DNA of 51,082 nt from NCBI GenBank assembly GCA_038046345.1, contig JBBSWJ010000019.1, forward strand, positions 1 through 51,082. The letters run 5' to 3'. Of this stretch, positions 5,073-51,082 are shown piece after piece. A program made the position numbers and the translations under genes. The DNA comes from Nanobdellota archaeon. Lineage in GTDB: Archaea > Nanobdellota > Nanobdellia > SCGC-AAA011-G17 > JACPNG01. Position 1 is the stretch's first letter. Every line of letters begins with the position of its first letter. The notes beneath the pieces are model-generated. The model ran no database searches. It saw nothing but the letters and a program-made list of their open reading frames with translations, and was not told the DNA's origin.

Positions 5073-5702
5073 ATGAACTACGAAGAAGATTACCATCATT
5101 ACTTACATGAACACTTACTAAAAAATAAAAGATATTACTCTTTTAGAGCCAGATACGCTGCACAAAACTATCTAAAGTATTTACCATCAGGAAAAATTCT
5201 GGAATTTGGTTGCGGGATGGGACAAAACATATTACTACAAAAGAATAGGGCAATTGGATGTGATATCTCAGAGTTTTCCAGAAAGGTATGTGAAGAAAGA
5301 GGGATAAAAACAATAAAGTCAATTGAAGAGGCACCAAAAGTGGATGGAATATTAAGTGTACATGTATTAGAACACCTAGAAAACCCCAAAGCAATACTCA
5401 AAGCCTTTAGAAATAAATTAACACCTGGAGGCAGACTTGTAATTGTACTGCCTGTAGCCTGTAAGAACAAACCATGCCCGCAGAAGAAAATGGATGTATC
5501 ACAACACTTATTTGCGTGGACATTTGGAACTTTTAACAATATGCTTTTACATGAAGGATATAAGGTATTACATAACAGCTTTAATTACTCAAGAGGATTT
5601 TCCATGTTCTATAGATTACCATACCATTTAGCAGTAATTTTGATTAAGATAACAGGGGTATTAACAAATAAAAAAGAAATGATATTCGTTGCAAGAATAT
5701 AA
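5073..5702 (+). CDS. Class I SAM-dependent methyltransferase
   Basis: ILEFGCGMG motif I, GCDIS, and HVLEHLENP. Confidence 0.85.
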   Translation: MNYEEDYHHYLHEHLLKNKRYYSFRARYAAQNYLKYLPSGKILEFGCGMGQNILLQKNRAIGCDISEFSRKVCEERGIKTIKSIEEAPKVDGILSVHVLEHLENPKAILKAFRNKLTPGGRLVIVLPVACKNKPCPQKKMDVSQHLFAWTFGTFNNMLLHEGYKVLHNSFNYSRGFSMFYRLPYHLAVILIKITGVLTNKKEMIFVARI

Positions 5703-5765
5703 ATAATATAAAAGTGATATTATTTGAATAATAAATCTTTTAAACAGAAACAAAAAAGATACACC

Positions 5766-8435
5766 ATGGATAACACAGATGTAATAGAAATAAGAAAAGA
5801 GGCCATTCTAAAAACTGTAAAAAACAAATCTTTAATGGAATACTTACCATATGGATTACTGTTTATAATAATCTATTTAGGATACAAGCTAAGAGTTCAA
5901 AATCTTGTTCATTTAATTGATAGAACAACTGGGCAATACATACCCATAGCACTAGACCCATATTTATTTTTAAGATACGCAGAAGAAATACTTGCCAATG
6001 GAAAATTAGCAGCAATAGACACGTTACGTTATTACCCCATAGGCTATGTAACCGGCGGGGAGAATATACTTTTGTCATACATGATTGTATGGCTTTACAA
6101 AATAATACATGCTTTTAATCCAGAAGCAACATTACAATATGTGGATGTGATCTACCCACCAATAGCCTTTGCAGTGGGGCTTATATTCTTTTTTCTTTTA
6201 GTAAAAAAATTATTTAACTGGAAGATTGCAGTATTAGCATCTGCCTTTTTAGCAACTGTACCAACCTATTTGTTCAGAACAACTGCAGGATTTGCAGATA
6301 AAGAAGCACTTGGCAGCCTGTTACTGTTTGTGTCATTGTATTTATATGTACATTCATGGCAGGCAAAAACATTGAGAAACACATTAATATTTTCAGCAAT
6401 GTCAGGAGTTTCAACAGGAGTAATGGCACTTGTGTGGGGCGGAGTAAACTTCATATGGTTAACAATCGGGGCGTTTGTAATGATTGAGATATTCCTTAAT
6501 AAGTTCACAAAAAGAGATTTCTATGCATACACAGCTTTCTTAATACCATTATTGCTCATTGTGTTCACACAAACAAACAGGTACCCACCACAAGCATTTT
6601 TTGCTAGTGTAAGCTCTGGTATACTGGGCCTTGCATGGTTAACAGCATTAGTGCACTATATAATCTTTGAAAAAAAATGGCTTAAGATACATAAGTATTT
6701 CGATGAAAAACTTCCTGAGGGAGTATCAAGTTTTATTATAGCAGCAGGTATAGCAATAATTGGAACTAGTATTTATTATGGACCAACATTTATCATAAGC
6801 AGGCTAAGAGAGGTTTACATATCATTTACCAGACCGTTTGGAGAGACAAGATGGTCGTTAACAGTAGCAGAGAACCATCAACCATACATCAAAGAGTGGT
6901 TTGATCAGTTAGGTTTGAGATTTATATGGGCGTTTATAATCGGATCAATACTATTTTTTTACTCTATGATAAAAGGAATAGAAATAGCCAAGAAGAAAAA
7001 GTATTATATCACAGCTGCATATGCTTTGTTTGTAATCAGCTTTATCTTTTCAAGATACAGTCAAGAATCAGAATACTTAAATGGTACTGGGCAATTTGCA
7101 TTATTCTTATATCTTGGAGTTTCATCAATGTTTATTATACTGCTTGGATATATTTACCTAAGAAGTTATTACAAAGACAAAAGCGTATACCAAGAGATTA
7201 GAAGCATACCAAAAATTTATGTATTCATGTTTATATTTTTTGTATTAATGCTAGTAGCAGCAAGATCAGCAGCCAGACTATTGTTTATTTTTTCACCAGT
7301 AATAAGCATATTTGCTGCGTATACATTTGATTATGTTTTCATATGGAGTAAAACACTAACAAAACAATGGTCTAAACTGGTAATCTGGGTTGTTATAATG
7401 TTAGTTTTATTCAGCCCAATAACTATAAGCGACAAACTAGGGGAGTACGGAGATAAAGGGATAATCAACATAAAATACAAAGAGGCTAAGGCGATAGCTG
7501 CAGGTACTGGACCAAGTTACGATCCGCAATGGCAAATTGCTATGGACTGGGTAAGAAAAAATACCCCTAAAGATGCAGTATTTGCACACTGGTGGGATTA
7601 TGGATACTGGGTGCAGTATGGCAGCAGAAGAGCAACGCTTGGTGATGGCGGAAACAGCCGCGGTGCTATTAACCATTTTATGGGCAGGCATGTATTAACA
7701 GGGCATTCTGACAGAGAAGCACTAGAATTACTAGCAGCAAACAATGCAACACATCTTTTGATGATTGTTGATGAAATTGGAAAATACCCAGCTTACTCTT
7801 CAATAGGCGCAGATGTTGGTTATGACAGATATTCATTCATACCAGTATTTTCTCAAAATCTTGAAGCAACAAGGGAAGGAAGGGAAGGTGAGGTTATTTA
7901 TACATACGAGGGCGGCGCAGGAGTAGATCATGACATAACCTATAGTGGTACAATATTCCCAGACGGAGCAGCAGGAATTATTGGATTTCAAATCCCAGTA
8001 ATAGTAAAAGATGGAGTACCAACATTCAATCAACCTGTAATGACAGTGGTTTATAACAATCAGCAATTTCTTATACCATTAAACTGTTTATGGTACGATG
8101 GGGATCTAAATCTTTATGATGGCGGGATTGACGCGTGTGTAAGGATGTTAACCGTATTCAACAGCGAAACAGAATCAAATGCGATTGGTGGATTATTCTA
8201 TCTGAGCCCAGAAGTAAGCCAAACAAGATTTACTCACTTGTTCCTATTCGATGAAGAAAATGAATTCTTTAAAAAAGTATATGACGATAGCAGCATGAGG
8301 CCACTTGCCGTATTCCAAGGAAGATTAGTAGGACCATTAAAGATATGGGAGCTGAGTTATCCTGATGATCTTGAAATACCCCCTGAATATTATGGTGAAA
8401 CATTGCCTGATCCTAGAGTACAAGAAGTGAGGTAG
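5766..8435 (+). CDS. aglB: Oligosaccharyltransferase AglB (STT3 family)
   Basis: WWDYGYW motif, LDPY in EL1, TVAEN in EL5, DEIGK (DK-like motif) and many TM helices. First ATG is 5766; the ORF track starts at TTG 5724. Confidence 0.95.
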   Translation: MDNTDVIEIRKEAILKTVKNKSLMEYLPYGLLFIIIYLGYKLRVQNLVHLIDRTTGQYIPIALDPYLFLRYAEEILANGKLAAIDTLRYYPIGYVTGGENILLSYMIVWLYKIIHAFNPEATLQYVDVIYPPIAFAVGLIFFFLLVKKLFNWKIAVLASAFLATVPTYLFRTTAGFADKEALGSLLLFVSLYLYVHSWQAKTLRNTLIFSAMSGVSTGVMALVWGGVNFIWLTIGAFVMIEIFLNKFTKRDFYAYTAFLIPLLLIVFTQTNRYPPQAFFASVSSGILGLAWLTALVHYIIFEKKWLKIHKYFDEKLPEGVSSFIIAAGIAIIGTSIYYGPTFIISRLREVYISFTRPFGETRWSLTVAENHQPYIKEWFDQLGLRFIWAFIIGSILFFYSMIKGIEIAKKKKYYITAAYALFVISFIFSRYSQESEYLNGTGQFALFLYLGVSSMFIILLGYIYLRSYYKDKSVYQEIRSIPKIYVFMFIFFVLMLVAARSAARLLFIFSPVISIFAAYTFDYVFIWSKTLTKQWSKLVIWVVIMLVLFSPITISDKLGEYGDKGIINIKYKEAKAIAAGTGPSYDPQWQIAMDWVRKNTPKDAVFAHWWDYGYWVQYGSRRATLGDGGNSRGAINHFMGRHVLTGHSDREALELLAANNATHLLMIVDEIGKYPAYSSIGADVGYDRYSFIPVFSQNLEATREGREGEVIYTYEGGAGVDHDITYSGTIFPDGAAGIIGFQIPVIVKDGVPTFNQPVMTVVYNNQQFLIPLNCLWYDGDLNLYDGGIDACVRMLTVFNSETESNAIGGLFYLSPEVSQTRFTHLFLFDEENEFFKKVYDDSSMRPLAVFQGRLVGPLKIWELSYPDDLEIPPEYYGETLPDPRVQEVR

Positions 8436-8437
8436 GA

Positions 8438-9925
8438 ATGAAATTTTCAGATAAATTGTTTATACCTGGAATAATAATATTAATTGGGCATTTCTTTTAT
8501 AGATTAATTGACCAGTCCCAAATGCTTAAAGTATTTCCTTTAGATTACACAAATGACTGGGCATCGCACATAGCAAAAATATTTTTTTTGGAAAATTGCG
8601 GATTTTTTCAATATTGCGAGTATTGGTATAACGGGTTTACATTATTTGAATTATACCCACCAGGATATTTCTTGTTTACTTGGTTGATACAGGTTATAAC
8701 AAATAATTATCTTGTAACAGCATTTGTTTCGATGGTACTATTGTTCACTATTGGCTTTTTAATTTTATGGAAACTTGGTAAACAAGAACATCTTAGCAAA
8801 CTAAAAAGAGCAGCGTTTTTCTCATTTTATTTTCTAAATGCAATACCTATTGGAGATTATATAAGACTTGGAAGAATGCCTGAACTGTTTGCATGGGTAA
8901 CATTCTTAGGGTTTGCAACTACCCTATTTTATTTTAGAAATAAAAAACTGAATAAGTATTTTTTTTTAACAAGTATTTTGTATGCAGTTATACTAATATC
9001 GCATCAAACAGTGGCAATATTAGCAAGTGTGTTATGGATTTCAATATTTTTAGCTCAAAAAGAAAAACTAAAAGTAATTGCCGGGTTTTTGCTTGGTGTG
9101 CTACTAAGCTCATGGTGGACAGTTAGATATTTTATAGCATCACAAGGGACATCAACTTATTCTTACGTATTATCGCGGTGGCTCTTTGATTTTAAAGTAT
9201 TGATATGGACTAATATAGCCGCAATGATAATACCATTAGGCACTTTAATTTTATTTTATGGGTATATCAAAGACAGAGATAAAAATGAATTGTTGTTCTT
9301 TGCGCCACCAATGATTATTACATCTTTGGTATTGCTTAGAGTAGTACCATTTATCCCGATACTTAAGTTTGTTTATCCCGATCCTTACTTAAACTTTATA
9401 CTATTTTTTGGATTGTTCTTTTTGCTTACTTCAAATTATAAATCATATAATAAGCTAATAGCCATGGTAATAACTGTGGTGATTATTGTTGGGCCCATAG
9501 CTGGTGTTGCTGTGAATATTGTTAAAACCCCAAGATTTGTAGGTCATGGGGAAGTAGAAGAAAATGCAATAATGGTCTTAAAAGAAGTTAATGGAAGATT
9601 TTTGATGGTGCATAGCCCATACGAGACTCTTTATAGCAAAGCATTTTTTGCTTACGCGCCAATATACCACGGAAAAATAACTGCAGGCGGATGGAATGAA
9701 CAATTTAAACCCAAAGAATACAATCAAAGAATAATCGACCTTGATAAACACATAGAAAGAAAGGATTGTGACAAATTTGAAGAAATAATTTCCAGTTTAA
9801 ATGTAACAGAAGTAATAACCTTTAATGATCATTGTGAAACTTTAATATCTTGCGGATGGAACAAAAAAAGTCAAAAAGGTAATGTTTGTCTCTTTGAGGT
9901 TAAAGGACGAATTTTTACCAAGTAA
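8438..9925 (+). CDS. GT-C-fold membrane glycosyltransferase-like protein (PTPS-related/YfhO-like membrane family)
   Basis: DWASHIAKI...YWYNGFTLFELYPPGYF first loop, about 12 TM helices and a soluble C-terminal domain. Begins 2 nt after the aglB stop. Confidence 0.65.
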   Translation: MKFSDKLFIPGIIILIGHFFYRLIDQSQMLKVFPLDYTNDWASHIAKIFFLENCGFFQYCEYWYNGFTLFELYPPGYFLFTWLIQVITNNYLVTAFVSMVLLFTIGFLILWKLGKQEHLSKLKRAAFFSFYFLNAIPIGDYIRLGRMPELFAWVTFLGFATTLFYFRNKKLNKYFFLTSILYAVILISHQTVAILASVLWISIFLAQKEKLKVIAGFLLGVLLSSWWTVRYFIASQGTSTYSYVLSRWLFDFKVLIWTNIAAMIIPLGTLILFYGYIKDRDKNELLFFAPPMIITSLVLLRVVPFIPILKFVYPDPYLNFILFFGLFFLLTSNYKSYNKLIAMVITVVIIVGPIAGVAVNIVKTPRFVGHGEVEENAIMVLKEVNGRFLMVHSPYETLYSKAFFAYAPIYHGKITAGGWNEQFKPKEYNQRIIDLDKHIERKDCDKFEEIISSLNVTEVITFNDHCETLISCGWNKKSQKGNVCLFEVKGRIFTK

Positions 9926-10467: not shown

Positions 10468-10585
10468 AAAGCTTAAATAACTTAAGATGTTTTTAAACTT
10501 TTTTGTTTGGTTTTTTTATTTTTAACTTTTTTTAATGCAATGGAATAGAAAACTATATAACCTATCTTCATTAAAAGGAAATAAG

Positions 10586-12088
10586 ATGATAAAAAAGTTA
10601 TTGATACTAGCAATAAGCGTGGTAATGTTATTATCAATAATGTTAACAGCACAAACATGTGTAAAACTGCCAATATGCGGTGATGGAGAAGTAAACCAAG
10701 CATCAGAACAGTGTGATAAATTAGATTTTAATGATCACACATGCCAAACTGAAGGATTTAGTTCTGGGATGTTAAACTGCAATAATGATTGTACCATTAG
10801 TACAATGAGCTGCCAAACGCAAATGCCTCAATCACAACTGATTCAAAATTATATAATACTAGGAAATAACTGGGGTGGAGGCTCAGCATCACAAGATGAG
10901 CTTGATTATTACATAACAAGATATTCTATGGCACAAGAATTTAGAGACTGGGAAGGAAAACCACTAATAGAAGCAGGAGGACAGAACATACTAAAATATC
11001 GTCTTGGAGGAAGCCTTTTTGACATAAGCCTGTCAAGCGCACCAGAAAGAATGGATATATGGGAAAAAGCAACTGGACAAAGATCAGGATATATGGATAT
11101 AAGACTGAAAAAAGAAGATGGAGGTTACATGCAGAGAAAGGATGGTAAAGAATGGCTTCTAGATTTGTCAACACAAGAAAATGTAAATCAATGGTCACAA
11201 ATATTAATAGAAAGCTTAGAACCATACCTTGAAGAACAAGATCCACCATTCCATGGAATATTTTTTGACGTAGCTAACCTTCAAGATATGAACGGATACC
11301 AAGGAGTTCCAGCACCATCATCAGGAGAAGAATACTCAAAAGGATCACAACATGATGGATTAGTAAATGTATACAGGCAAGTAAGGAATAGATTTCCCGA
11401 GGGGATAATAATACTAAATGGTCATAATCCATGGGAAAGAAGTTCAACTTTCCAAAAAGATCCGTCACTACCAGAATATTCCGGAAGAAGATTAGTAATG
11501 GACAGCGGAGCTGACGGGATAATGGTAGAAAATAGAATGCTGTCAGGAGGACCATCAATATCAAGCTGGACGAGCGCGGCAATACAAGACATAAGCTATT
11601 TATTAGATAATGGAAAAAAGGTGATAGTAACATATGCATTTGGAGAAGACCAACCTAACTTTAATGCGCAAAGAAAATGGGCACTAGCAACATATTTAAT
11701 AGCAACAGGAAATAACCGAAATGCGTATTTTGGAATGGATCAAGTTGGCGGCGGTGAACTACCAGATTATCCAGAACAAACATTTGATATCGGAAAAGAA
11801 CTTGGAGAACCAATAAGCGGTATTTTAGAAGAAAGTAATGGTGAAGTATTAAGAAGAAACTTTGAAAATGGGATAGTATTAGCACATGTGAGAAATGATG
11901 GAACACCACAAGAAATAACAATACCAGGAGAATACGAAGCATTGAGATTGAATGGTGGTGGCGTGTATGACATGGAAGACACACCGCAAGGAATGATTAA
12001 CTGGGATGGAGACATATTTGAGCAATTATTACCTCCAACACAACAAATCGTAGATGGATCTGCATTAATTCTTAGAGAAATACGATAA
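10586..12088 (+). CDS. Secreted/lipid-anchored TIM-barrel glycoside hydrolase-like protein (GHL15/GH114-like) with N-terminal Cys-rich module
   Basis: Signal ending LTAQTC, a CGDG...EQCD...TC...GF..G.L.C...C module, HGIFFDVAN, IIILNG, DGIMVEN, WALATYLIA and LRRNFENGIVL. Start re-called to ATG 10586. Confidence 0.6.
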   Translation: MIKKLLILAISVVMLLSIMLTAQTCVKLPICGDGEVNQASEQCDKLDFNDHTCQTEGFSSGMLNCNNDCTISTMSCQTQMPQSQLIQNYIILGNNWGGGSASQDELDYYITRYSMAQEFRDWEGKPLIEAGGQNILKYRLGGSLFDISLSSAPERMDIWEKATGQRSGYMDIRLKKEDGGYMQRKDGKEWLLDLSTQENVNQWSQILIESLEPYLEEQDPPFHGIFFDVANLQDMNGYQGVPAPSSGEEYSKGSQHDGLVNVYRQVRNRFPEGIIILNGHNPWERSSTFQKDPSLPEYSGRRLVMDSGADGIMVENRMLSGGPSISSWTSAAIQDISYLLDNGKKVIVTYAFGEDQPNFNAQRKWALATYLIATGNNRNAYFGMDQVGGGELPDYPEQTFDIGKELGEPISGILEESNGEVLRRNFENGIVLAHVRNDGTPQEITIPGEYEALRLNGGGVYDMEDTPQGMINWDGDIFEQLLPPTQQIVDGSALILREIR

Positions 12089-12269: not shown

Positions 12270-12938
12270 ATGCAAAATAAGATACCTAAAGATATAAAAA
12301 ATAATTATGAATTCTTATCAAGAATGGACAAAGCATACTTACATGCTAGGTGGAGGTTATGCCCATTTTTATTAATTGATAAATGCTTACCTCAAAAAGG
12401 AAAAATTGTAGACGTTGGAAGCGGATATGGGCTGTTAGGGCATGTAATAGCAAGAAATCAAAATAGAAAAGTTTATGGAATTGATTTATCTAAAAAAAGA
12501 GTAGATATAGCAAGAAGATCCATCAATGGAAAAAAGAACTTATTTTTTGAAAGAAAGAATGTGAAAGACTTAAAATTAGGAGATTGTGATGGTATTGTTA
12601 TGTCTGACTTTCTACACCACATTAGTTTTAAGGATCAAGAAAATTTGATTAGACAAGCAAGAGGGAAGCTGAAGAATGGCGGAATATTAGCAATCCAAGA
12701 CATTGATAAAAAACCAAAATGGAAATATGCATTTGCAGCTGGTTTAGACCTTATTCTGAATGGTTTTCCATACTTATACTACAGACGAAAAGAAAATTTT
12801 AAGACAATGCTTGAAAGGAACGGATTTCAAGTTGAAATTGTCCCAGCAGATAAAGGGCTTCCGTTGCCGGATATTTTATTTATTTGTACAAAGGTTTCTT
12901 TGCCAAACATAAGGCAGAAACACCAAATGGAAAATTAA
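12270..12938 (+). CDS. Class I SAM-dependent methyltransferase
   Basis: IVDVGSGYG, YGIDLS and DFLHHI. TATA at 12243-12250 favours ATG 12270. Confidence 0.85.
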   Translation: MQNKIPKDIKNNYEFLSRMDKAYLHARWRLCPFLLIDKCLPQKGKIVDVGSGYGLLGHVIARNQNRKVYGIDLSKKRVDIARRSINGKKNLFFERKNVKDLKLGDCDGIVMSDFLHHISFKDQENLIRQARGKLKNGGILAIQDIDKKPKWKYAFAAGLDLILNGFPYLYYRRKENFKTMLERNGFQVEIVPADKGLPLPDILFICTKVSLPNIRQKHQMEN

Positions 12939-17753: not shown

Positions 17754-17841
17754 CTTGATATTCAAAATATCCAGTTTAAAAGTATTATTGGGTTAAAGAA
17801 TCTACGAAAAGCTTTTAAAAATATTATCAGCAGTATGAATA

Positions 17842-22707: not shown

Positions 22708-22803
22708 TTTATTCTCCTTTTTGTTATGATGGGTATGAGATGGTTTAAATAATTTTTGATTAAAACTAGCAAAGCTTATAAATAAAACGGTTGGCATGAT
22801 GAC

Positions 22804-27482: not shown

Positions 27483-27549
27483 TGTAGGTCGCATGTCTAT
27501 TTTTTATAACCTCAAAAAGCCTTTTAATTCTTTCTATAAAAATAATGTT

Positions 27550-31664: not shown

Positions 31665-31709
31665 TAAGGTGGTATTAGAACAATTCTGTTTTAGTATAGG
31701 TATTTTTAT

Positions 31710-42706: not shown

Positions 42707-42713
42707 CGTAGTA

Positions 42714-44189
42714 TTAGTTCGTGTTCACAAACTCATAAATAATTACAGCAGGCTGAGTTTGAGCTTCATCAAAATACCATGCCTTAACTGGTTTTACTTT
42801 ATCTTGATTTTCTTGAGGCCAAGAATAAGTCCAATCAGGTGAAGGCTCCCAACGAGTAATTAACATGTACTTTGGTTTTAGGAGATTAATTTTTTCAGGA
42901 AATTGTTCAGCAGTAGAAGTGTAAGAATCAATGTTTCTATCAGAATAATATAACAATTGAGGCTGCCCAGAACTAATAATCCTGTCTGTAGGCTCTGAAT
43001 TTTCTTTAATCCATTCACCAGCAAACTTCAAATGGATAAAAGTATCCCTTTTAGAAACAATTAATTCATCAGCGAATACAACCTGTGAATAGCCACCGAA
43101 ACCTAACAATAATAAAACAATAACAACACCAAAGATTTTAGACTTAAACAGCCTATCAGAAACAGAACTTATCTTTTCAGAAGCATAACCAATCAATAAA
43201 GCAAACATTGGAAGAGTAAGCATTAGGTACCTTTCTTCAACTACAGCAGTAACCAATCCAAAAATTATTATCGGCATAAGAATCCATACAAGCATAAACA
43301 ATTTCCTTCGTATCTTTTCATTTTTGAAAATAATATCCAAACCTAAAAATAACTCAGTGAAATAAGTTAAACCAAAAGCAGCTAAAAAAATAAAAGTACC
43401 TTGATATATATAATTTAAATTTTTAATATAATCAAAAATTAGAATCTCCCTGCCTGTAAAATAATGAATTAATGAACCCTTTACCCCTTCATTAGCACCT
43501 TCATAACTAAAAAATTTAATAAAGAAAGGAGTTAGAATAATTAAGAAAATAATAAGCATGATCCATAAATGTTTATTCTTAAGAAACTTTAGTTTTTCTT
43601 TGGTAATAATGTAAACTAAAATTGGAACTACAGTGATAAAATAACCCAATCTTGTAAATATTGAAAGACTGATTAGGATAGCTGCCAGATACATTAGTTT
43701 AGGCTTTTCTGGATAACCTTTTAAGAAATAATAAATACCGGGGATTATAAAAGCAAGAGCAGGAACGTCTGTTAAAAGTCTTGAAGTAAAAAATAAATGC
43801 AACCATGAAGTGCCCAAAACAAAGGCAGCAATGGCTCCAACATACTTGTTAAACCAAAATTTACCTAAAAGATAAGTATAAACAACAGCTACAAACGAGA
43901 AAACTAATTCAGTAAAATGTAAACTAAGCTCTCCTAAACCAATCTTATATAATCCTGCCCATAAAATTGGTAAGAAAAAAGTTCTTCTAAAATAATAATT
44001 ATCTTCTAATGATAGATCAAAACCCCATAAACGAGCCTGAGCAAGATAAGAACCCTCATCATACCAAACAGCGGAATTAATATTAAAGTATTTCCAACGC
44101 AGAAATAAAGACAATAAGAATATTCCAGTTAAAATGTAAGGAAAATACTTTGCTGCTAAGTCGGATAATCTTTTTTCTTCCATAAACAT
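42714..44189 (-). CDS. GT-C glycosyltransferase (ArnT/PMT, GT39/GT83-like)
   Basis: WYDEGSY acidic loop motif, SRLLTDVP, EERY, multiple TM helices and a soluble C-terminal domain. Confidence 0.85.
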   Translation of the reverse strand: MFMEEKRLSDLAAKYFPYILTGIFLLSLFLRWKYFNINSAVWYDEGSYLAQARLWGFDLSLEDNYYFRRTFFLPILWAGLYKIGLGELSLHFTELVFSFVAVVYTYLLGKFWFNKYVGAIAAFVLGTSWLHLFFTSRLLTDVPALAFIIPGIYYFLKGYPEKPKLMYLAAILISLSIFTRLGYFITVVPILVYIITKEKLKFLKNKHLWIMLIIFLIILTPFFIKFFSYEGANEGVKGSLIHYFTGREILIFDYIKNLNYIYQGTFIFLAAFGLTYFTELFLGLDIIFKNEKIRRKLFMLVWILMPIIIFGLVTAVVEERYLMLTLPMFALLIGYASEKISSVSDRLFKSKIFGVVIVLLLLGFGGYSQVVFADELIVSKRDTFIHLKFAGEWIKENSEPTDRIISSGQPQLLYYSDRNIDSYTSTAEQFPEKINLLKPKYMLITRWEPSPDWTYSWPQENQDKVKPVKAWYFDEAQTQPAVIIYEFVNTN

Positions 44190-45257: not shown

Positions 45258-45337
45258 AAATTTGGTTAAAGATTTGAATTTAAAATAGTATCTTTTACTA
45301 GCGGTATGTTTAAAATAAATGGAGGTTGCAATTTTGT

Positions 45338-46081
45338 ATGGTAAGTAATAGATCTGAATCGTATGAGTATAGCGATAGTGTTAGAGTAACAAGAGAGGTG
45401 TTTAATTCATTATTGTACATGGCAGAAACTCATCTCTCTATGCCACATAAAAAACCACCAGATATTTCGATTAAAGTAAACAGGAAAATACATGGTAAGG
45501 CGCGTATACGCCCATTACATGTGCCAGTGCTTGAATTGTCATCATTATTATCACCTGAATCAATAATTTTCCATGAAGCAGTACATTACTTGGCTTATAG
45601 AGAAGATGGTCTTTTTTGGGGGGATAATATTGGTGGTTCAATATTTTCTACACTGCTAAATGAAACTCTTGCAGAACTTGCAACATATGAAGTTTATGGA
45701 TATGGCCCTGTGTATCGGATTGATTTTTTTGATAAATGCCAAAATAATAATATAAGATTTAGCAATGGAGTAAAAATTGATAAAGCGATATTTGATATGT
45801 TGAGGTTATCTTGTAAGGTTGATGTTTTTTGGGCTAAAAAAGGTAAGCAAAAAGATAAAAAAACAGTGTTAAAAGAGTTTATTGAACTGTGTGTTGATAA
45901 TAAGCATAAACTTGACTATTTCATAAAGATTCGCGCAGTAGAATGCGCAAAAAGCCTTAGAAATGCTGATTATAAAGCTAGAACATTAATGGATAGATAC
46001 AAGCATACTGAAAGGGATGAGGCTGGTGCACTGATATTTTATGTTAAGAGCGTTATACCAGCTATGAGGATCAGTGAATAA
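45338..46081 (+). CDS. Hypothetical protein with zincin-like HExxH motif
   Basis: IIFHEAVHY and downstream LNETLAE (possible third ligand Glu). GGAGG at 45321-45325. Confidence 0.55.
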   Translation: MVSNRSESYEYSDSVRVTREVFNSLLYMAETHLSMPHKKPPDISIKVNRKIHGKARIRPLHVPVLELSSLLSPESIIFHEAVHYLAYREDGLFWGDNIGGSIFSTLLNETLAELATYEVYGYGPVYRIDFFDKCQNNNIRFSNGVKIDKAIFDMLRLSCKVDVFWAKKGKQKDKKTVLKEFIELCVDNKHKLDYFIKIRAVECAKSLRNADYKARTLMDRYKHTERDEAGALIFYVKSVIPAMRISE

Positions 46082-47135
46082 GTGTTTTAACCAAATTACC
46101 AGCAATTGTTTGGTATGCCTCGCATGGAGTCCAACAGTTTGGGCAGTTTAGCTTTTCAGCATCTATTTGTGTTTTAATCACTGTTGGTTCTTTCCATAAC
46201 TTTTTGATATTGTAATCATAGTCTCTTACATTACCAAGTGCTTTATCCCAAACAAGGCATGGAAATATATTTCCGTAAGGATCAAGAAAACAAGAAGAGT
46301 TTAGTGCTTTGCAAGGTAATGGTGATTTATTGCTTAATACGAATTCTTTAACGAAATGCGTGTATTTTTTTTCTAAAAAATTAATCTTAAAATCATTGCC
46401 TTGTTTAAATTTGTTGTAAGTATTAATTTCATTGATAACCCTTTGATTATATTCATCAGTCTTCTTTTGATCTTGGTTTTTAAAAAAGTGTTCTGAAGTA
46501 TGATATAAATTCATGTGAATGTATTTTGGGTCAATATTGTATTTGTCTCGCATCTGCTGAATGAACGAGTCTATCTTGCCCATGTTATGCATTGATGAGG
46601 TATAGCTGATAAAAACATTAAAATGGTTGTTTTCTAATGCCTTTAATTTATTAAATGTAATCATACATCTCTTGAAAGATTGTTGCATACCGCGAACAGT
46701 TTCATGATCTGATTCAAATCCATCAATGCTGATAGAAACAACAAATCTAGGAATATTTAATGTTAAAATCTTTCTAACCTGTTCTTCTATTATGTCAGGA
46801 GTGTAACCATTTGTGGTCATATGAACTACATACAACTCTTTGTCATTTTCAGTAATAGTTTTAAGGATGGTATAAACATCACGCATGAATGGTTCTCCAC
46901 CAGTTAATTGTAGCCAGGATGGCTTGGCATTTCTAAAGATTAATCCAATCTCTTCAGTGGATAGCTCTCCTTTTGTGATAGCTTTAGGGTTAGCGAGATA
47001 GTTTTTCCCTATATTACAGGTTTTACATAAGAAAGTGCAAGCATAAGTTATTGCAAAAGTGATCTTACATGGTGAGTCAAGTCTACTAAAATTAGATTTT
47101 ACAAGTTTTTTAGTGATGTTGTATACTGGTTTCAT
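46071..47135 (-). CDS. Radical SAM protein with SPASM/twitch domain
   Basis: CTFLCKTC, TGGEPF, CKAL...YGNIFPC and CPNCWTPC. Confidence 0.9.
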   Translation of the reverse strand: MKPVYNITKKLVKSNFSRLDSPCKITFAITYACTFLCKTCNIGKNYLANPKAITKGELSTEEIGLIFRNAKPSWLQLTGGEPFMRDVYTILKTITENDKELYVVHMTTNGYTPDIIEEQVRKILTLNIPRFVVSISIDGFESDHETVRGMQQSFKRCMITFNKLKALENNHFNVFISYTSSMHNMGKIDSFIQQMRDKYNIDPKYIHMNLYHTSEHFFKNQDQKKTDEYNQRVINEINTYNKFKQGNDFKINFLEKKYTHFVKEFVLSNKSPLPCKALNSSCFLDPYGNIFPCLVWDKALGNVRDYDYNIKKLWKEPTVIKTQIDAEKLNCPNCWTPCEAYQTIAGNLVKTLIH

Positions 47136-48066
47136 TTACGTACCAATCATATGCTTCTTTCAGCATTTGGATATTATCAAATTTCGGAGTCCATCCTAAT
47201 AATGTTTTTGCTTTTGTATTGTCTAATATTGAGTTCTTGTCTAAAACATAATAATGCTCTGGAGTTAAAGGTGATATCTTCAGCTTATAAAGTATTTTAC
47301 ATCCAGTTCTTGCTAAGATTGCTGGAACGGGCAGGACTATTGACTTTGATTTTGAATAGTCAATAAGTGATTTAAACTCTTCTTTAACAGTCGGAATATT
47401 ATCAGAGCCAAGATTAAAGGTTTCACCGGGTTTAATATATTTTTCAGCAAGTAATAAAGCATCAACACAATCATGAACGCTAACCATCTGGATTTTATTA
47501 TTCCCATTTCCAAAAGTTGGTAGTGGATAGCTATTATGAACATAGCTAATAAATTTTTTAAAAACACCATAAATACCAGGACCGATAATTGCCATAGGCC
47601 GAACTATTACAACATCAACTCCCTTTTTAACATATTCTTGGCATTTTATTTCAGCTTGCCATTTGGTGATACCATATGCTCCTTGTGGGTTTTTTGGATC
47701 GTCTTCTTTTAATGGAAATTGCCTGCCACCACCGTAAACACCTGAACTTGAAACGTGAACTAATTTAATATTCTTGGCAAGGCATATTTTTAAAGTATTT
47801 TCAGTACCTTTAACAATGGTATCAACATAAGCACTGTAATTTACGTTTGATTGCGGAACTAATGAAGCTAAATGAAAAATGCTATCAATATTTTTAGTAA
47901 CTTTGTCAAGTGTTTCAATATTTCTTATATCGCCTTTAATAAACTCAACATCCTTGTTAGCGCAGTCTCTTATGTCTAAAACACGCACTTCTTTTTTGTG
48001 TTTAAGCAAGCTTTTGAGTAAATGCGAACCAACAAATCCAGACCCGCCTGTAACTAAGATTACCAT
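47110..48066 (-). CDS. NAD-dependent epimerase/dehydratase (extended SDR)
   Basis: TGGSGFVGS, VSSSGVYG and intact YGITK. Confidence 0.9.
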   Translation of the reverse strand: MVILVTGGSGFVGSHLLKSLLKHKKEVRVLDIRDCANKDVEFIKGDIRNIETLDKVTKNIDSIFHLASLVPQSNVNYSAYVDTIVKGTENTLKICLAKNIKLVHVSSSGVYGGGRQFPLKEDDPKNPQGAYGITKWQAEIKCQEYVKKGVDVVIVRPMAIIGPGIYGVFKKFISYVHNSYPLPTFGNGNNKIQMVSVHDCVDALLLAEKYIKPGETFNLGSDNIPTVKEEFKSLIDYSKSKSIVLPVPAILARTGCKILYKLKISPLTPEHYYVLDKNSILDNTKAKTLLGWTPKFDNIQMLKEAYDWYVNETSIQHH

Positions 48067-48734
48067 ATATCTTTAAACAACCTCCATACAAATTTCCAGC
48101 CAATTTTCCAGAGATTAATGTTTGACTTACCATGTTTTCTTTCATATTCATGAGCAGGGATTTCCTTGATGCGGTTCTTTTTTTTTAAAGCTTTTAAGAT
48201 CATTTCTTGTTCAATATCAAAATCATCAGCATTTAATTTTAAATCTTTAGCAATAGATACCTTTAATGCGCGAAAACCATTTTCACAATCGCTTAGACGA
48301 ACATTAAATCGATAATTAATTATCAGCTGGATGAGATTACTGCCAATATTTCGTATAAAGTTTGAGAAAGTCCCATGCAATTCATCGCTCCCTCCAAGCA
48401 TGCGAGAACCAATTACCATATCTGCTTTATCTTCTTGTAAAGGTTTAATCATTCTTTGAATATCTTTTGAATCGTGGGAACCATCTGCATCCATAAATAC
48501 AATAATACCATCTTGCAAATAATTTATGGCACATTTCTTAGCCTCACCATGACCTTTACCATGATCAATGATGTATTTTATTTTATTCTCCTCTAAAATT
48601 GCTTTAGTTCTATCTGAGGACTTTTTAGCAAGAATGACAAGTACTTCATCACAAAATGGTTCTGTTTCTTTGACTACCATTTTGATAGTATTCTCTTCGT
48701 TAAATGCAGGAATAACAACTGTAACTTTGTCCAT
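48060..48734 (-). CDS. GT2 glycosyltransferase, DPM1-like
   Basis: VVIPAFNEE, GKGHGEA, FMDADGSHD, IGSRML and DCENGFRA. Confidence 0.9.
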   Translation of the reverse strand: MDKVTVVIPAFNEENTIKMVVKETEPFCDEVLVILAKKSSDRTKAILEENKIKYIIDHGKGHGEAKKCAINYLQDGIIVFMDADGSHDSKDIQRMIKPLQEDKADMVIGSRMLGGSDELHGTFSNFIRNIGSNLIQLIINYRFNVRLSDCENGFRALKVSIAKDLKLNADDFDIEQEMILKALKKKNRIKEIPAHEYERKHGKSNINLWKIGWKFVWRLFKDIW

Positions 48735-48831
48735 GGCAAGAAACATTATGGCATGTTTAAAAGGTTTCTTGTGTTGTGTATCATGGCTGTTAATCTATGC
48801 AAATGATTATATTTAACTATGTAATTTTTTG

Positions 48832-49404
48832 ATGATGAGGATTTATGTAGGATATGGAGATCCAATAGAAAAACAAGCGGCTGAAGAAATAGCTCCACTT
48901 TTGATAGATAACGAGTGTGTTAATGTTTTTAGTATTGTATATTCTATTCTTACTTCTGAGCCTAAATCACTTGATGATCTTTTTCTGGGGGCATTAAGCA
49001 GGGCTGGTCGAGCATTTAGAGGCGATAGTAAACTAAGTTTTGGTATAGTAAGCGGGTTATGGAGTTATGATGGTGCATCTTCCGGATGTTTTTATTCTAC
49101 ATTATGTGCGGTATATGATGGAAAAACACGCGCAGTTCCAGGTGTTTCGGCAGCTTTTGATGTACCTGAAGTAATTGTAGACTGTTTAGACCAAGGAGCA
49201 TCAGATATTAATGAAGCATGTTATCAAGCAGGGCTTCTTGAACGTAGCCAATCAATAGATTTATTAGGGGGGATTATAGGGGCTTTAACTGGTGGGCGGG
49301 TGACAAGAAAAGACATGGTAAAACAAGCGATAGAAATGGGGTTTATGCACTTTAACCAACGTGAGCTTTATAGTCAGCGTGGTAATAAGTTTTTAAGATC
49401 GTAG
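48832..49404 (+). CDS. YjjX/DUF84 (inosine/xanthosine triphosphatase)-like protein, apparently degenerate
   Basis: GALSRA, VSAAFDVPEVI and GGIIGALTGGRVTRKDMVKQAI resemble YjjX. The N-terminal NPxK and IExG positions appear as DPIE and IVSG. Confidence 0.6.
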   Translation: MMRIYVGYGDPIEKQAAEEIAPLLIDNECVNVFSIVYSILTSEPKSLDDLFLGALSRAGRAFRGDSKLSFGIVSGLWSYDGASSGCFYSTLCAVYDGKTRAVPGVSAAFDVPEVIVDCLDQGASDINEACYQAGLLERSQSIDLLGGIIGALTGGRVTRKDMVKQAIEMGFMHFNQRELYSQRGNKFLRS

Positions 49405-51082
49405 ATGTACGCAGCTTCTTTGTTTTTTAATAATATTATCTCATTAGGTTGAAATTGTGTCCTAACAAGATCTTCATCCTTTGGGAATTTTCCGGAGTTA
49501 GGTTTAGTATTTAAAACAATGTACCTAACAGTACGATTTAATGGTCTGAATGTTTCAACAGCGTCTATTAAAGATGGTTCTCTCTTAAATTCGTTTCTAA
49601 ATGCCTGGATCCATAAGTAATACAGTAAAGATTCTTCTTGCCGTAAATAATAGTATTCCATGTTTGAAGAAATAAATGTTTCATCATCATTCAGCAATTC
49701 TTTTAACTTGTTAGCAATCTCTCCAGAAGCAAATTGATTTGGGTTATTTTCTCCGTCACAAATCTTGTTAGCTCCAGCGCAGATGATCTGGTTTTCAGAA
49801 TCAAAATATGGAACTGTATTGTGAGCGATAGCAAATGAGAATATAATATAAGCAAAGAGGAACACACCAAAAGCTAGTTTTTTATTTTTAAAGAAGGATA
49901 AAAGCTTTGATTTTTCACAAAAGATTAAACTCATAATGAAAATAATTGGAATGCCATATGAAATAAAAACCCGGACTAATTCAAATGCAATTCCAAAGAA
50001 TAATGCAGCCAGTAAAAATGTTAACAGGTTATACAATAAGAATTTTTCATACAATTTTTTATCTTTTTTTATTAAAATTTTTATAAGAATTAATGCGCCT
50101 ATGACTAATAAGATGGTATCAATTACATTACTATGAGCAAAAAAGAAAACAAAATCTCTTCCTAATTGAACAAAATCAATTGATGGGGTGCTGATAGCAG
50201 GATTAAACTTACGATAAGTTTCTAATGTTGAAAAAAATGTGCTTGGAGATAATTTGAAAGGGAGCAGTGCAGCTATGACAAAAGCTACCAAAGAGGCAAT
50301 ACCAATCTTTAAAGGATTTGAAAGATTTATTTTTGATTCATCGTTAAAAGATCCATCAATCTTTGAAATAGCTTTTTTACAGAATGTTTTGACTGATTCA
50401 TAGTTCTTGTCCATTAGCAAGGATAAGATTAAAGCTAAGAGCGCACCACCATACCATTTTGTAGCCTGTGCTAGCCCAATAAGGAAGGCAGCAACAACAA
50501 AGAAAAAAAACTCTATTTTAGAATTATTATCTGCATGATAGGCCTTCCAGCAAAAATATGTTGCTAGTATAAACAAGAAGAATAATATTATATCTTCTTT
50601 AATCCACCGAGACATAACAAGCAGGCCAGGATAAAATGCGTAAAAAGATACAGCCCATAGCGCAGAAAAACGATTTAGTAAAGTAAATGCTAGTATGATA
50701 ATACCAAATAAAGATAGTAATCCAAAAATAAACATTGGAGCGTGGCAGTAACCAATAGCATTAATCATTTGTTTACCAACCAGAGCTTCACGCCCTGGAT
50801 AAAAAACAGGCGCGATATCACGAACTTGAGAAAAATCTTCTCCGGAGGTGATACATCCTGCCCCAATAATTAGATTTCCAAGCGGCGGGGCTGCATTAGT
50901 AGCTAAACCAGGAAAGTAATTGTACGGGGGATAAAACCAAAAGAGACTACCTGGAACTGCAGACATATCGTCGCCCCAATACCCCACATTTTTGTAATCT
51001 TCAAACCTAACAAAAATTCCAAGAATAATAATAAGCAAAAGAAAGCATAATACGAATTTGTCTTTGAATATTTTTTCTTTTA
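49374..51082 (-). CDS. GT-C membrane glycosyltransferase-like protein (PMT/ArnT-like), 5' end outside window
   Basis: YWGDD acidic loop, APPLG, SRWIKED, TKWYG and many TM helices. The frame stays open upstream of 51038 to the window edge. Confidence 0.75.
   Translation of the reverse strand, partial: KEKIFKDKFVLCFLLLIIILGIFVRFEDYKNVGYWGDDMSAVPGSLFWFYPPYNYFPGLATNAAPPLGNLIIGAGCITSGEDFSQVRDIAPVFYPGREALVGKQMINAIGYCHAPMFIFGLLSLFGIIILAFTLLNRFSALWAVSFYAFYPGLLVMSRWIKEDIILFFLFILATYFCWKAYHADNNSKIEFFFFVVAAFLIGLAQATKWYGGALLALILSLLMDKNYESVKTFCKKAISKIDGSFNDESKINLSNPLKIGIASLVAFVIAALLPFKLSPSTFFSTLETYRKFNPAISTPSIDFVQLGRDFVFFFAHSNVIDTILLVIGALILIKILIKKDKKLYEKFLLYNLLTFLLAALFFGIAFELVRVFISYGIPIIFIMSLIFCEKSKLLSFFKNKKLAFGVFLFAYIIFSFAIAHNTVPYFDSENQIICAGANKICDGENNPNQFASGEIANKLKELLNDDETFISSNMEYYYLRQEESLLYYLWIQAFRNEFKREPSLIDAVETFRPLNRTVRYIVLNTKPNSGKFPKDEDLVRTQFQPNEIILLKNKEAAYIYDLKNLLPR

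What the first reader, a model, noticed from the sequence alone, without database searches (positions are those of the whole stretch)
5073..51082. Radical-SAM-rich glycan-tailoring pathway physically tied to aglB and the S-layer gene
Seen: seven radical SAM genes (four B12-binding, three SPASM/twitch), four class I methyltransferases, a DegT aminotransferase, two SDRs, a DUF362 Fe-S protein, a GPT, and GT-A/GT-B/GT-C transferases. All lie downstream of aglB, with no core lipid or cofactor pathway genes. Established: B12 radical SAMs C-methylate or rearrange unactivated carbons (HpnJ is linked to conversion of a hopanoid glucosamine to a cyclitol), and twitch enzymes such as BtrN oxidise sugar-like hydroxyls. 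Inference: this locus builds an archaeal N-glycan or surface polymer with radical-modified sugars, chemistry I do not know from characterised agl clusters. This is the best candidate for a new system here.
Basis: partly seen in the sequence, partly recalled or inferred. Interest (0 to 1): 0.85.

Follow-up and report, generated by a model that had tools for sequence, protein, structure and literature searches.

The report
Radical-SAM-rich archaeal surface-glycan island
A tiny symbiotic-type (DPANN) archaeon gives about 9% of its genome to a sugar-chain assembly island beside its protein-glycosylating enzyme AglB. Nine radical SAM enzymes sit among the glycosyltransferases there, which points to an uncharacterised, oxygen-free way of modifying cell-surface sugars.

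Summary
The window has seven radical SAM (rSAM) genes: four with a B12-binding domain, two SPASM, and one core-only. It also has four class I methyltransferases, DegT, two SDRs, DUF362, a GPT, four GT2, one GT-B and four GT-C including AglB, beside an S-layer-like gene. The island runs on to the contig end (76.6 kb, 9% of an 821-kb genome) and gains two more B12-rSAMs there.

The link to glycans rests on three findings:
- In all 18 related genomes (10 families) where aglB and a B12-rSAM share a contig, they lie 25 kb or less apart.
- In 79 bacterial and archaeal loci, 41% have a glycosyltransferase within 3 kb of the rSAM.
- 59 of 80 longer homologues are rSAM-glycosyltransferase fusions, including one in cultured Megalodesulfovibrio gigas.

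No rSAM reaches any curated family cut-off, and the chemistry cannot be assigned. It could be C-methylation, AprD4-like dehydration or HpnJ-like rearrangement. The island is a shuffled mosaic of modules rather than one pathway, and the S-layer tie recurs in only one of four relatives compared.

I found no paper describing this. This scan has already noted the same kind of island in at least 34 other genomes. Verdict: a new variant of a known kind. The glycan link rests on context only, and the chemistry is inferred.

The parts
2648..4984 (+). S-layer-like surface protein (778 aa), 8 N-X-S/T sequons, signal-peptide-like N-terminus
   Evidence: PF05124 S_layer_C 41.2 bits, cut-off 23.9. Sequons and termini. 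A 60% homologue lies beside aglB in G003 only.
5073..5702 (+). Class I SAM methyltransferase, upstream of aglB
   Evidence: Methyltransf_23/11/12
5724..8435 (+). AglB oligosaccharyltransferase (903 aa), the only copy in the genome
   Evidence: PF02516 and PF21436. WWDYG at residue 623. One STT3 match in the genome.
8438..9925 (+). GT-C-fold membrane protein (about 9 TM), starts 3 nt after aglB. Conserved next to aglB or B12-rSAMs in relatives.
   Evidence: No Pfam hit. Atlas matches PTPS_related/PMT_2/RgtA-like clusters with TM 0.71-0.93. Homologues in G003, G012, L011 and L020.
10535..12088 (+). GHL15-type putative glycoside hydrolase with N-terminal TM
   Evidence: PF14885 40.8 bits
12261..12938 (+). 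Class I methyltransferase
12880..14684 (-). Overlapping pair: class I methyltransferase (12880-13614) and DegT/PseC/ArnB-like sugar aminotransferase (13590-14684)
   Evidence: Pfam. NCBIfam PseC 246 bits, below cut-off.
15976..17765 (-). Overlapping pair: NDP-sugar 4,6-dehydratase/epimerase-type SDR (15976-16986) and GT2 (16971-17765)
17842..20443 (+). Initiating polyprenyl-phosphate HexNAc-1-P transferase (GPT, 17842-18855) followed by two GT2 genes (18825-19544, 19541-20443)
   Evidence: PF00953 and PF00535. GPT is 36-57% conserved in all four compared islands.
20653..21741 (-). Radical SAM + SPASM enzyme (362 aa)
   Evidence: PF04055 and PF13186. CX3CX2C at residue 28.
21754..22797 (-). Radical SAM enzyme (347 aa), core domain only by Pfam. 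Nearest solved relatives are PqqE and the sugar-nucleoside decarboxylase BlsE.
22804..24273 (+). Unknown soluble 489-aa protein heading the B12-rSAM operon
   Evidence: No Pfam or NCBIfam hit. Atlas gives no confident relative.
24346..25773 (+). B12-binding radical SAM #1 (475 aa)
   Evidence: PF02310 68 bits and PF04055 103 bits. Best NCBIfam hit HpnJ, 245 bits against a cut-off of 578. Its clade is dominated by bacteria. The model is nearest to AprD4 and MgmA.
25782..27173 (+). B12-binding radical SAM #2 (463 aa)
27475..28686 (+). GT-B (GT4-family) glycosyltransferase
   Evidence: PF00534 and PF13439
28649..30070 (+). B12-binding radical SAM #3 (473 aa), overlaps the GT-B gene
30135..31082 (+). 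Methyltransf_23 class I methyltransferase with C-terminal TM. The same MT follows the #1 orthologue in G004.
31353..32293 (+). Mobile or selfish insert: MNT-type nucleotidyltransferase (31353-31664) and IS200/Y1 transposase (31742-32293)
32406..34274 (+). B12-type radical SAM #4 (622 aa). A 125-aa mini-intein (nt 33069-33443) interrupts it at the third Cys of the cluster motif.
   Evidence: PF04055, intein hits PF14890 and TIGR01445. Sequence and alignment.
34339..35808 (+). GH39-like protein (489 aa, 13 Cys)
   Evidence: PF01229 30.4 bits
36349..37284 (+). LPG_synthase_TM (MprF flippase-domain-like) membrane protein, candidate lipid-linked-sugar translocase
   Evidence: PF03706 155 bits. Co-occurs with GT2/B12-rSAM in L075 and L101.
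39130..40362 (+). Alkaline-phosphatase-superfamily phosphodiesterase/pyrophosphatase
   Evidence: PF01663
41023..42243 (+). DUF362 protein
   Evidence: PF04015 163 bits. Homologues lie in B12-rSAM loci L065 and L075.
42714..44189 (-). GT-C (PMT_2) glycosyltransferase, about 30% conserved in all four compared islands
46071..48746 (-). Conserved three-gene module: AglJ/PpgS-like polyprenyl-phosphate sugar synthase GT2 (48060-48746), SDR (47110-48066) and SPASM radical SAM (46071-47135)
   Evidence: Pfam. NCBIfam AglJ 134 bits. The module is 60-72% identical and syntenic in G003. rSAM homologues are patchy, in 13 of 301 genomes, and sit beside GT2, SDR, GT-B or B12-rSAM genes.
49374..51082 (-). 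GT-C (PMT-type) glycosyltransferase. The reading frame continues beyond the window to C19:51866.

Best explanation
This is the variable surface-glycan assembly island of a small-genome DPANN (Nanobdellota, Woesearchaeota/Pacearchaeota-type) archaeon, anchored on its single aglB. A GPT starts a dolichol-linked glycan. GT2, GT-B and GT9 enzymes extend it. DegT, 4,6-dehydratase-type SDR and methyltransferase genes supply amino-deoxy and methylated sugars. AglJ/PpgS-like GT2 enzymes make dolichol-phosphate sugars, which flippase-like proteins pass to four GT-C enzymes (AglB included) acting outside the membrane. Among these genes sit rSAM enzymes that most likely tailor the lipid-linked sugars, each working next to a partner glycosyltransferase. 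The B12-type enzymes would most likely C-methylate unactivated sugar carbons, or extend O-methyl groups placed by the adjacent class I methyltransferases. The SPASM-type enzyme with its SDR partner would carry out an anaerobic oxidation-reduction (epimerisation) or dehydration-reduction (deoxygenation) of a dolichol-phosphate sugar. Shown: gene content, clustering, conserved linkage to aglB and GTs, and fusion to GT domains. Inferred: the substrate (lipid-linked sugar) and all the chemistry.
For: Gene content. Clustering statistics. Linkage to aglB: in five genomes the single aglB lies at the edge of the B12-rSAM/GT2 island. Combining, in 18 genomes from 10 families where the two share a contig, the nearest B12-rSAM is 25 kb or less from aglB (17 of them 16 kb or less). 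In relatives, B12-rSAMs sit directly beside the GPT (L012, L013, L014, L016) or the aglB-adjacent GT-C (L011, L020). Outside the lineage: 32 of 79 loci from Elusimicrobiota, Planctomycetota, Patescibacteria, Omnitrophota, Desulfobacterota, Iainarchaeota and others have a GT within 3 kb of the rSAM. Detection used only single-sequence phmmer, so this is an underestimate. Fusions: 59 of 80 longer homologues carry GT2 or GT1 domains and 11 carry class I MT domains. M. gigas P0178 has the B12-rSAM at residues 35-468 and GT2 at residues 505-631 and beyond. A second mini-cluster in the same genome (C31) repeats the set GT-C-like, GT2, DegT, B12-rSAM. Cobalamin use is plausible because the genome encodes an AdoCbl-dependent class II RNR (408 bits against a cut-off of 400).
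Against: No rSAM reaches any equivalog cut-off. A 2026 review states that methylating and non-methylating B12-rSAMs cannot be told apart by sequence or structure (PMC12931638). AprD4, a cobalamin-free sugar dehydratase, is the best structural match by TM-score (0.76/0.80). The genome shows no corrinoid adenosyltransferase or BtuF-type binding protein. The SPASM model is as close to peptide maturases (SkfB, CteB, anSME) as to the sugar enzymes DesII, BlsE and BtrN. Eleven of 61 related genomes have no such B12-rSAM, so the function is accessory. Related genomes are not independent, so the aglB linkage may be inherited synteny.
Confidence: 0.6

Rival explanations
1. The 'B12-type' enzymes are AprD4-like: cobalamin-independent radical SAM 1,2-diol dehydratases. 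With an SDR reductase (AprD3-like logic) they deoxygenate sugars. This would still be glycan tailoring, but by deoxygenation rather than methylation.
For: AprD4 (6fd2) is the best full-length structural match of the #1 model (TM 0.76/0.80, rmsd 4.0) and the second-best sequence hit in the PDB (9e-25). SDR genes lie in the island. No cobalamin adenosyltransferase or BtuF was found.
Against: The N-terminal domains of #1-#3 pass the Pfam B12-binding threshold (68, 54 and 54 bits against 32.1). Sequence similarity to AprD4 covers only the rSAM core, and the NCBIfam AprD4 score is 108 bits against a cut-off of 500, whereas HpnJ and BchE align from the N-terminal domain onward. The cell must hold cobalamin for its class II RNR.
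Confidence: 0.15
2. HpnJ-like rearrangement: the GT2/B12-rSAM pairs mirror HpnI/HpnJ and convert a lipid-linked hexosamine into a carbocyclic (cyclitol-type) head group or glycan unit.
For: HpnJ is the top NCBIfam hit for three of the four window paralogues and second, just behind BchE, for #3. GT2 adjacency and fusion recur. SDR 47110-48066 resembles the hopanoid-associated epimerase HpnA (101 bits).
Against: Scores are 27-42% of the HpnJ cut-off. No HpnK-type deacetylase was seen. The reviews found list HpnJ's reaction under 'other or unknown transformations'. The frequent class I MT partners fit methylation better.
Confidence: 0.12
3. The radical SAM enzymes modify a protein or peptide (the S-layer protein, pilin-like proteins or a RiPP-type precursor) rather than sugars. 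The GTs then glycosylate that product.
For: SPASM enzymes are typically peptide maturases. The nearest structures include SkfB, CteB, anSME and SuiB. MgmA, a protein glutamine C-methylase, is the best E-value match of #1. ApyD and the RiPP methylase TIGR03975 are among the NCBIfam hits. Four small N-terminal-TM proteins lie at 35-2470.
Against: No recognisable precursor-peptide, leader-peptidase or RiPP transporter set was found. rSAM genes are fused to GT2/GT1 catalytic domains in 59 of 80 long homologues and sit beside the GPT and dolichol-phosphate sugar synthases.
Confidence: 0.1
4. The enzymes act on isoprenoid lipid: the dolichol carrier or membrane lipids taken from a host, with GrsA/B-, Tes- or HpnP/R-like ring formation, coupling or methylation.
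For: DPANN cells depend on host lipids (established knowledge). GDGT-MAS is a weak hit of 21754-22797 (1.7e-9). The lipid B12-rSAM family TIGR04072 is among the hits. LPG_synthase_TM and phosphodiesterase genes are present.
Against: All lipid-family scores are far below cut-off (TIGR04072 130 bits against 360, HpnR 124 against 650). Fusion and adjacency to GTs are not expected for chain-modifying enzymes. GrsA/B could not be compared directly because no reference sequence was available.
Confidence: 0.08
5. The clustering is an assembly, binning or chance artefact.
For: The genome is a 35-contig MAG, and #1 groups with bacterial sequences.
Against: GC content is uniform at 28-38% across the window. 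The same architecture recurs in many related genomes, including assemblies of one to four contigs. The binomial P-values are 1e-5 to 1e-9.
Confidence: 0.02

Closest known systems
aglB-anchored archaeal N-glycosylation clusters (Haloferax volcanii agl genes; Methanococcus agl genes)
   Same: Single AglB with WWDYG, an initiating GPT, AglJ-like dolichol-phosphate sugar synthase, GT2 and GT-B enzymes, class I methyltransferase, flippase candidates, and a surface-layer protein gene alongside.
   Different: No characterised agl cluster known to me carries radical SAM enzymes, and no paper in the library combines radical SAM, AglB, N-glycan and archaea. This island has 9 rSAMs and 4 GT-C enzymes and spans more than 70 kb of an 0.82-Mb genome.
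Sugar-acting class B radical SAM methylases of antibiotic pathways (GenK, GenD1/GntE, Fms7, MoeK5)
   Same: B12-binding domain plus rSAM core, in a glycosyltransferase and aminotransferase context. These are the precedent for C-methylation of unactivated sugar carbons (PMC12931638, PMC4340712).
   Different: Those act on secondary-metabolite pseudo-oligosaccharides in actinomycetes. Here the context is primary cell-surface glycosylation. No sequence-level membership was tested, as no reference models were in the libraries used.
HpnI/HpnJ/HpnK (bacteriohopanetetrol cyclitol ether pathway)
   Same: A GT2 plus a B12-type rSAM acting on a lipid-linked amino sugar. HpnJ is the best-scoring curated family for three of the four window paralogues.
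   Different: Scores are 156-245 bits against a cut-off of 578. There are no hopanoid genes and no HpnK, and the host is an archaeon.
AprD4/AprD3 (apramycin C3'-deoxygenation)
   Same: Best structural match of #1 by TM-score. It acts on a sugar and pairs an rSAM with an SDR reductase.
   Different: AprD4 does not bind cobalamin, and its N-terminal domain is not alignable by sequence with those found here. The NCBIfam score is 108 bits against a cut-off of 500.
CysS (iterative methylation of a methoxy group)
   Same: A B12-rSAM that extends an O-methyl group placed by an ordinary methyltransferase. The class I MT plus B12-rSAM pairing, including fusions, recurs here. CysS is a structural neighbour.
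   Different: The CysS substrate is a carrier-bound aromatic acid. Alkyl-ether sugars are purely hypothetical.
PpgS/Rv3779, ArnC/ArnT and GtrB/Gtr-type three-component glycosylation
   Same: A small GT2 makes a polyprenyl-phosphate sugar that a GT-C enzyme transfers outside the membrane. GT2 48060-48746 hits AglJ and PpgS, and GT-C genes flank it.
   Different: Here an SDR and a SPASM rSAM are inserted in the operon between synthesis and transfer.

Membership tests
Cobalamin-dependent (class B) radical SAM enzymes | N-terminal B12-binding (PF02310) domain | tested here: met
   #1 68.1, #2 53.8 and #3 53.9 bits against a cut-off of 32.1. #4 scores only 20.7, below the cut-off.
Cobalamin-dependent (class B) radical SAM enzymes | CX3CX2C [4Fe-4S]/SAM motif in a PF04055 core | tested here: met
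   Motif at residue 209 (#1), 210 (#2) and 190 (#3). #4 has CX4CX2C, which is restored only after intein removal.
Cobalamin-dependent (class B) radical SAM enzymes | Actual cobalamin binding and methyl transfer (SAH plus 5'-dA formation) | not testable with these tools
   Sequence and structure cannot separate methylases, rearrangement enzymes and AprD4-like proteins (PMC12931638).
HpnJ (TIGR03471) | Score at or above the curated equivalog cut-off (577.6 bits) | tested here: not met
   245, 183, 156 and 193 bits.
AprD4 radical SAM diol dehydratase (NF033070) | Score at or above the cut-off (500 bits) | tested here: not met
   108, 99, 62 and 34 bits. The fold is nevertheless closest by TM-score.
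MCR glutamine C-methyltransferase MgmA/QCMT (TIGR04014) | Score at or above the cut-off (360 bits) | tested here: not met
   165, 69, 141 and 63 bits. I did not search the genome for methanogenesis genes.
SPASM/twitch radical SAM enzymes | C-terminal Cys-rich auxiliary-cluster domain (PF13186) | tested here: met
   20653-21741 scores 44.4 bits and 46071-47135 scores 26.3 bits. Cys275, Cys293 and Cys331 are invariant and Cys334 nearly so in 13 homologues. For 21754-22797 no SPASM hit was found, so it is inconclusive.
BtrN-type sugar dehydrogenase | Specific sequence or structural similarity to BtrN | tested here: inconclusive
   BtrN (4m7t) ranks 35th with TM 0.41/0.56. The peptide maturases SkfB, CteB and anSME, and the sugar enzymes DesII and BlsE, rank higher.
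Archaeal N-glycosylation (agl) cluster | AglB with the WWDYG catalytic motif | tested here: met
   WWDYG at residue 623, with PF02516 and PF21436.
Archaeal N-glycosylation (agl) cluster | Initiating GPT, lipid-linked-sugar GTs and flippase candidates adjacent | tested here: met
   PF00953 GPT, AglJ-like GT2 (134 bits, below the equivalog cut-off of 325), LPG_synthase_TM, and a downstream Wzx-like protein and ABC exporter.
Archaeal N-glycosylation (agl) cluster | The glycan is actually transferred to the S-layer protein | not testable with these tools
   Only 8 sequons in 778 aa. No glycoproteomic data exist.

The most novel reading that the evidence does not exclude
A large, uncharacterised branch of B12-type radical SAM enzymes is coupled to glycosyltransferases by adjacency or fusion and has been exchanged repeatedly between ultra-small archaea and bacteria. 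It installs C-alkyl, alkyl-ether or carbocyclic modifications on lipid-linked cell-surface sugars under anoxic conditions. The result would be hypervariable, cobalamin-dependent glycan decorations of a kind not yet seen in any surface glycan, possibly serving host recognition or virus evasion in episymbionts.
Probability: 0.35. Interest if true: 0.85.

Novelty: new variant of a known kind. Interest (0 to 1): 0.66.

Why it matters
Archaeal N-glycans are chemically diverse, but every known tailoring step uses conventional enzymes. Radical SAM tailoring would add oxygen-independent C-H functionalisation to surface-glycan biosynthesis.

An 0.82-Mb genome that makes almost nothing for itself still keeps eight B12-domain enzymes, nearly all of them in this island. 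This implies that the surface coat, and the imported cobalamin it would need, matter greatly for a symbiotic life style.

The same GT-coupled enzymes occur in CPR bacteria, Elusimicrobiota, Omnitrophota and sulfate reducers, and also on contigs classed as viral. One is a single fused protein in cultured Megalodesulfovibrio gigas, which makes the question testable at the bench.

The largest groups of B12-rSAM enzymes are still functionally unexplored (PMC12931638). This family gives them a concrete substrate class to try.

Tried and rejected
Neighbourhoods were rebuilt instead from the genome search, the search for related loci and the fetch from genomes with my own ORF calling and phmmer/BLAST. 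This detects only families present in the window and so underestimates GT neighbours.
- Lenient Pfam (E up to 1) and the Atlas gave nothing for 22804-24273, 14799-15860, 37256-38578, 44206-45257 and 45326-46081.
- The AlphaFold models with Foldseek did not resolve the chemistry. The SPASM enzyme sits equally near peptide maturases and sugar enzymes. B12-rSAM #1 sits equally near methylases, OxsB and cobalamin-free AprD4.
- A tree with characterised references (GenK, HpnJ, GrsA/B, BtrN) could not be built because no reference sequences were available by reference. NCBIfam scores against cut-offs were used instead.
- A phosphonate or P-methylation reading (PhpK-like hits) was rejected: scores are far below cut-off and no PEP mutase domain appeared among the window proteins scanned with Pfam.
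- No tRNA genes or notable repeats mark island borders, and none flank the IS200 insert.
- 'One linear pathway' was rejected. Relatives share only AglB, the GPT, one GT2 and one GT-C, and the rSAM paralogue sets differ and are reshuffled.

Full report
**What is there**

The window is G000:C19:1-51082 of an 821,143-bp, 35-contig genome that is 97% complete. GC content is 28-38% throughout. Nearest protein clusters are from Nanobdellota, and homologues are named Woesearchaeota, Pacearchaeota or Nanoarchaeota. This is a small-genome DPANN archaeon.

- Seven radical SAM genes: four with an N-terminal B12-binding domain, two with SPASM, and one with the core domain only.
- Four class I methyltransferases.
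- A DegT aminotransferase and two extended SDRs.
- DUF362.
- A GPT, four GT2 genes and one GT-B.
- GT-C enzymes, including the genome's only AglB (WWDYG at residue 623).
- An S_layer_C protein just upstream.

Corrections:
- One methyltransferase lies upstream of aglB, not downstream.
- The ORF translationally coupled to aglB (8438-9925), which has no Pfam hit, has a GT-C fold.
- An IS200 transposase and MNT-type nucleotidyltransferases interrupt the cluster.
- The GT-C gene at the window edge continues beyond it.

**Extent and statistics**

The island continues to the end of contig C19 (76,584 bp). The extra stretch carries:
- a QueC-like gene, GT2, two GT9 and a GT1;
- a fifth B12-rSAM followed by a ferredoxin/DUF4346 fusion;
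- a Wzx-like flippase, a second LPG_synthase_TM protein, an SDR and an ABC exporter;
- a sixth B12-rSAM and another GT2.

The contig is 9.3% of the genome, yet it holds 9 of at least 17 rSAM genes (P=6e-6), 6 of 8 B12-domain genes, and 13 of 20 GT-type ORFs (P=2e-9). A second mini-cluster on C31 repeats the set GT-C-like, GT2, DegT and B12-rSAM.

**Is the rSAM-glycan link real?**

Three independent lines say yes.

1. Conserved linkage to aglB.
- 50 of 61 genomes of the same order have B12-rSAM homologues, usually 4-13 copies in physical clusters.
- In five genomes examined with Pfam models, the single aglB lies at the edge of the B12-rSAM/GT2 island.
- Combining, in all 18 genomes (10 families) where aglB and a B12-rSAM share a contig, the nearest one is 25 kb or less away (17 of them 16 kb or less). 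In 10 further genomes the two lie on different contigs, so they are undetermined.
- In relatives, the rSAM genes sit directly beside the GPT or the aglB-adjacent GT-C.

2. Distant genomes. In 79 loci from Elusimicrobiota, Planctomycetota, Patescibacteria, Omnitrophota, Desulfobacterota, Bathyarchaeia, Iainarchaeota and others:
- 32 have a GT within 3 kb of the rSAM, and 39 have a GT, SDR or DegT.
- I assume a background of about 10%; against that, P is about 1e-12.
- Recurrent patterns are GT2 then B12-rSAM, and GT-B then MT then B12-rSAM.

3. Fusions.
- 59 of 80 longer homologues carry GT2 or GT1 domains, and 11 carry class I methyltransferase domains.
- In P0178 of cultured Megalodesulfovibrio gigas, the B12-rSAM occupies residues 35-468 and a GT2 follows from residue 505.

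The SPASM enzyme 46071-47135 is rare, found in 13 of 301 genomes of the phylum. It too sits beside GT2, SDR, GT-B or other rSAM genes. Its GT2-SDR-rSAM module is 60-72% identical and syntenic in G003.

**Architecture**

The island is a mosaic, not a single pathway. Across four related islands, only these parts are conserved:
- AglB (39-44% identity);
- the GPT (36-57%);
- one GT2 (32-42%);
- one GT-C (about 30%).

The B12-rSAM paralogues share about 30-33% identity with each other and 27-46% with the best match in relatives.

Modules are reshuffled between genomes. G004 and G006 have the order #3-like, GT2, #1, MT. The window has unknown protein, #1, #2, GT-B, #3, MT.

On a 164-sequence FastTree, #1 lies in a well-supported clade of 17 bacterial, one named archaeal and three unlabelled rows (#1 itself and relatives from the searched genomes). 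Starred branches force at least 13 switches between domains (FastTree only, and long branches were flagged). The S-layer homologue accompanies aglB only in G003. This resembles hypervariable O-antigen or capsule loci with a conserved anchor.

**What the enzymes do**

None of the seven rSAMs reaches a curated equivalog cut-off. For the B12-type enzymes:
- HpnJ and BchE are the top NCBIfam hits, at less than half their cut-offs.
- By sequence, the nearest solved proteins are MgmA/QCMT (9CCB), AprD4, TokK, OxsB and CysS.
- The AlphaFold model of #1 (pLDDT 87) matches AprD4 best by TM-score (0.76/0.80) and MgmA best by E-value.
- A 2026 review states that methylases and non-methylating members cannot be separated by sequence or structure. 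It mentions no glycan, sugar or polysaccharide substrate (PMC12931638).

For the other rSAMs:
- The SPASM model (pLDDT 90) lies equally near the peptide maturases SkfB, CteB and anSME and the sugar enzymes DesII, BlsE and BtrN.
- 21754-22797 is nearest to PqqE and the sugar-nucleoside decarboxylase BlsE.

My committed reading is that the rSAMs tailor dolichol-linked sugars next to their partner GTs.
- B12-type enzymes: most likely C-methylation. All functionally characterised groups of the family contain C-methyltransferases, and class I MT partners recur, which also allows CysS-like extension of O-methyl groups.
- SPASM enzyme with its SDR: epimerisation or deoxygenation of a dolichol-phosphate sugar made by the AglJ/PpgS-like GT2 and used by the flanking GT-C.

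All of this chemistry is inference.

**Cobalamin**

No CobA- or PduO-type adenosyltransferase and no BtuF-type binding protein was found (the genome is 97% complete). However, the genome encodes a class II, AdoCbl-dependent ribonucleotide reductase above its cut-off. The cell must therefore import corrinoids, which makes cobalamin-dependent rSAMs plausible.

**Literature and earlier scan notes**

No paper in the library combines radical SAM, AglB, N-glycan and archaea. Searches on B12-rSAM with DPANN, glycosyltransferase or polysaccharide returned only aminoglycoside work and general reviews.

This scan has already reported the same kind of island in at least 34 other genomes. I re-derived the linkage and the fusions independently here. 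The earlier notes are not independent evidence.

**Limits**
- Neighbour annotation outside the window used single-sequence searches with the window's own proteins.
- Related genomes are not independent samples.
- The tree is FastTree only.

**Verdict**

This is a new variant of a known kind (an agl-type glycan island with radical SAM tailoring). It is of clear interest because it can be tested in cultured bacteria that carry the fused enzyme.

Noticed in passing
window 33069-33443 (within gene 32406-34274): A 125-aa mini-intein sits in B12-type rSAM #4, exactly at the third cysteine of the [4Fe-4S] motif (C214-x4-C219-x2 | intein C222...SN346 | C347). The +1 splice-junction Cys would therefore become the third cluster ligand only after splicing. 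Homologues P0123 and P0125 carry a larger, LAGLIDADG-containing intein at the same site.
   Followed up: partly
G000:C19:58735-60919 (beyond the window; L001 7735-9919): A fifth B12-rSAM is followed on the same strand by a small ferredoxin (Fer4) fused to a PterinBD-DUF4346 domain. This could be a dedicated electron donor or cofactor-handling partner.
   Followed up: no
whole genome G000: The genome has eight B12-binding-domain matches (seven of them clear B12-rSAM paralogues; the eighth, on C29, scores only 18.6 bits) and an AdoCbl-dependent class II RNR (C17:726-2897). No CobA/PduO adenosyltransferase or BtuF-type binding protein was detected, so the route of corrinoid uptake and activation is unknown.
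   Followed up: partly
window 31353-32293 and 27165-27494: An IS200/Y1 transposase and two paralogous MNT-type nucleotidyltransferase genes lie between the rSAM operons, consistent with a plastic, exchange-prone island.
   Followed up: no
L132-L169 (IMG/VR contigs): 38 contigs classed as viral encode B12-rSAM relatives (22-38% identity). Several have GT2, SDR, DegT or MT neighbours (for example L136, L138-L141, L147, L149). I did not check whether these are true viruses or misclassified cellular islands.
   Followed up: partly
G000:C31:174-6115: A second, smaller cluster repeats the set: 8438-like GT-C protein, GT2, DegT and B12-rSAM.
   Followed up: partly
window 35-2470: Four small ORFs (153-327 aa) lie upstream of the S-layer gene. 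Each has one N-terminal hydrophobic segment, 5-6 Cys and no family hit. They may be secreted or pilin-like surface proteins.
   Followed up: no
G000:C19:52812-56788 (L001 1812-5788): Just beyond the window lie a QueC-like PP-loop ATPase, GT2, a thymidylate-kinase-like protein and GT9. An earlier scan note describes this as a module travelling with a stand-alone aIF5A lysine-loop domain.
   Followed up: no
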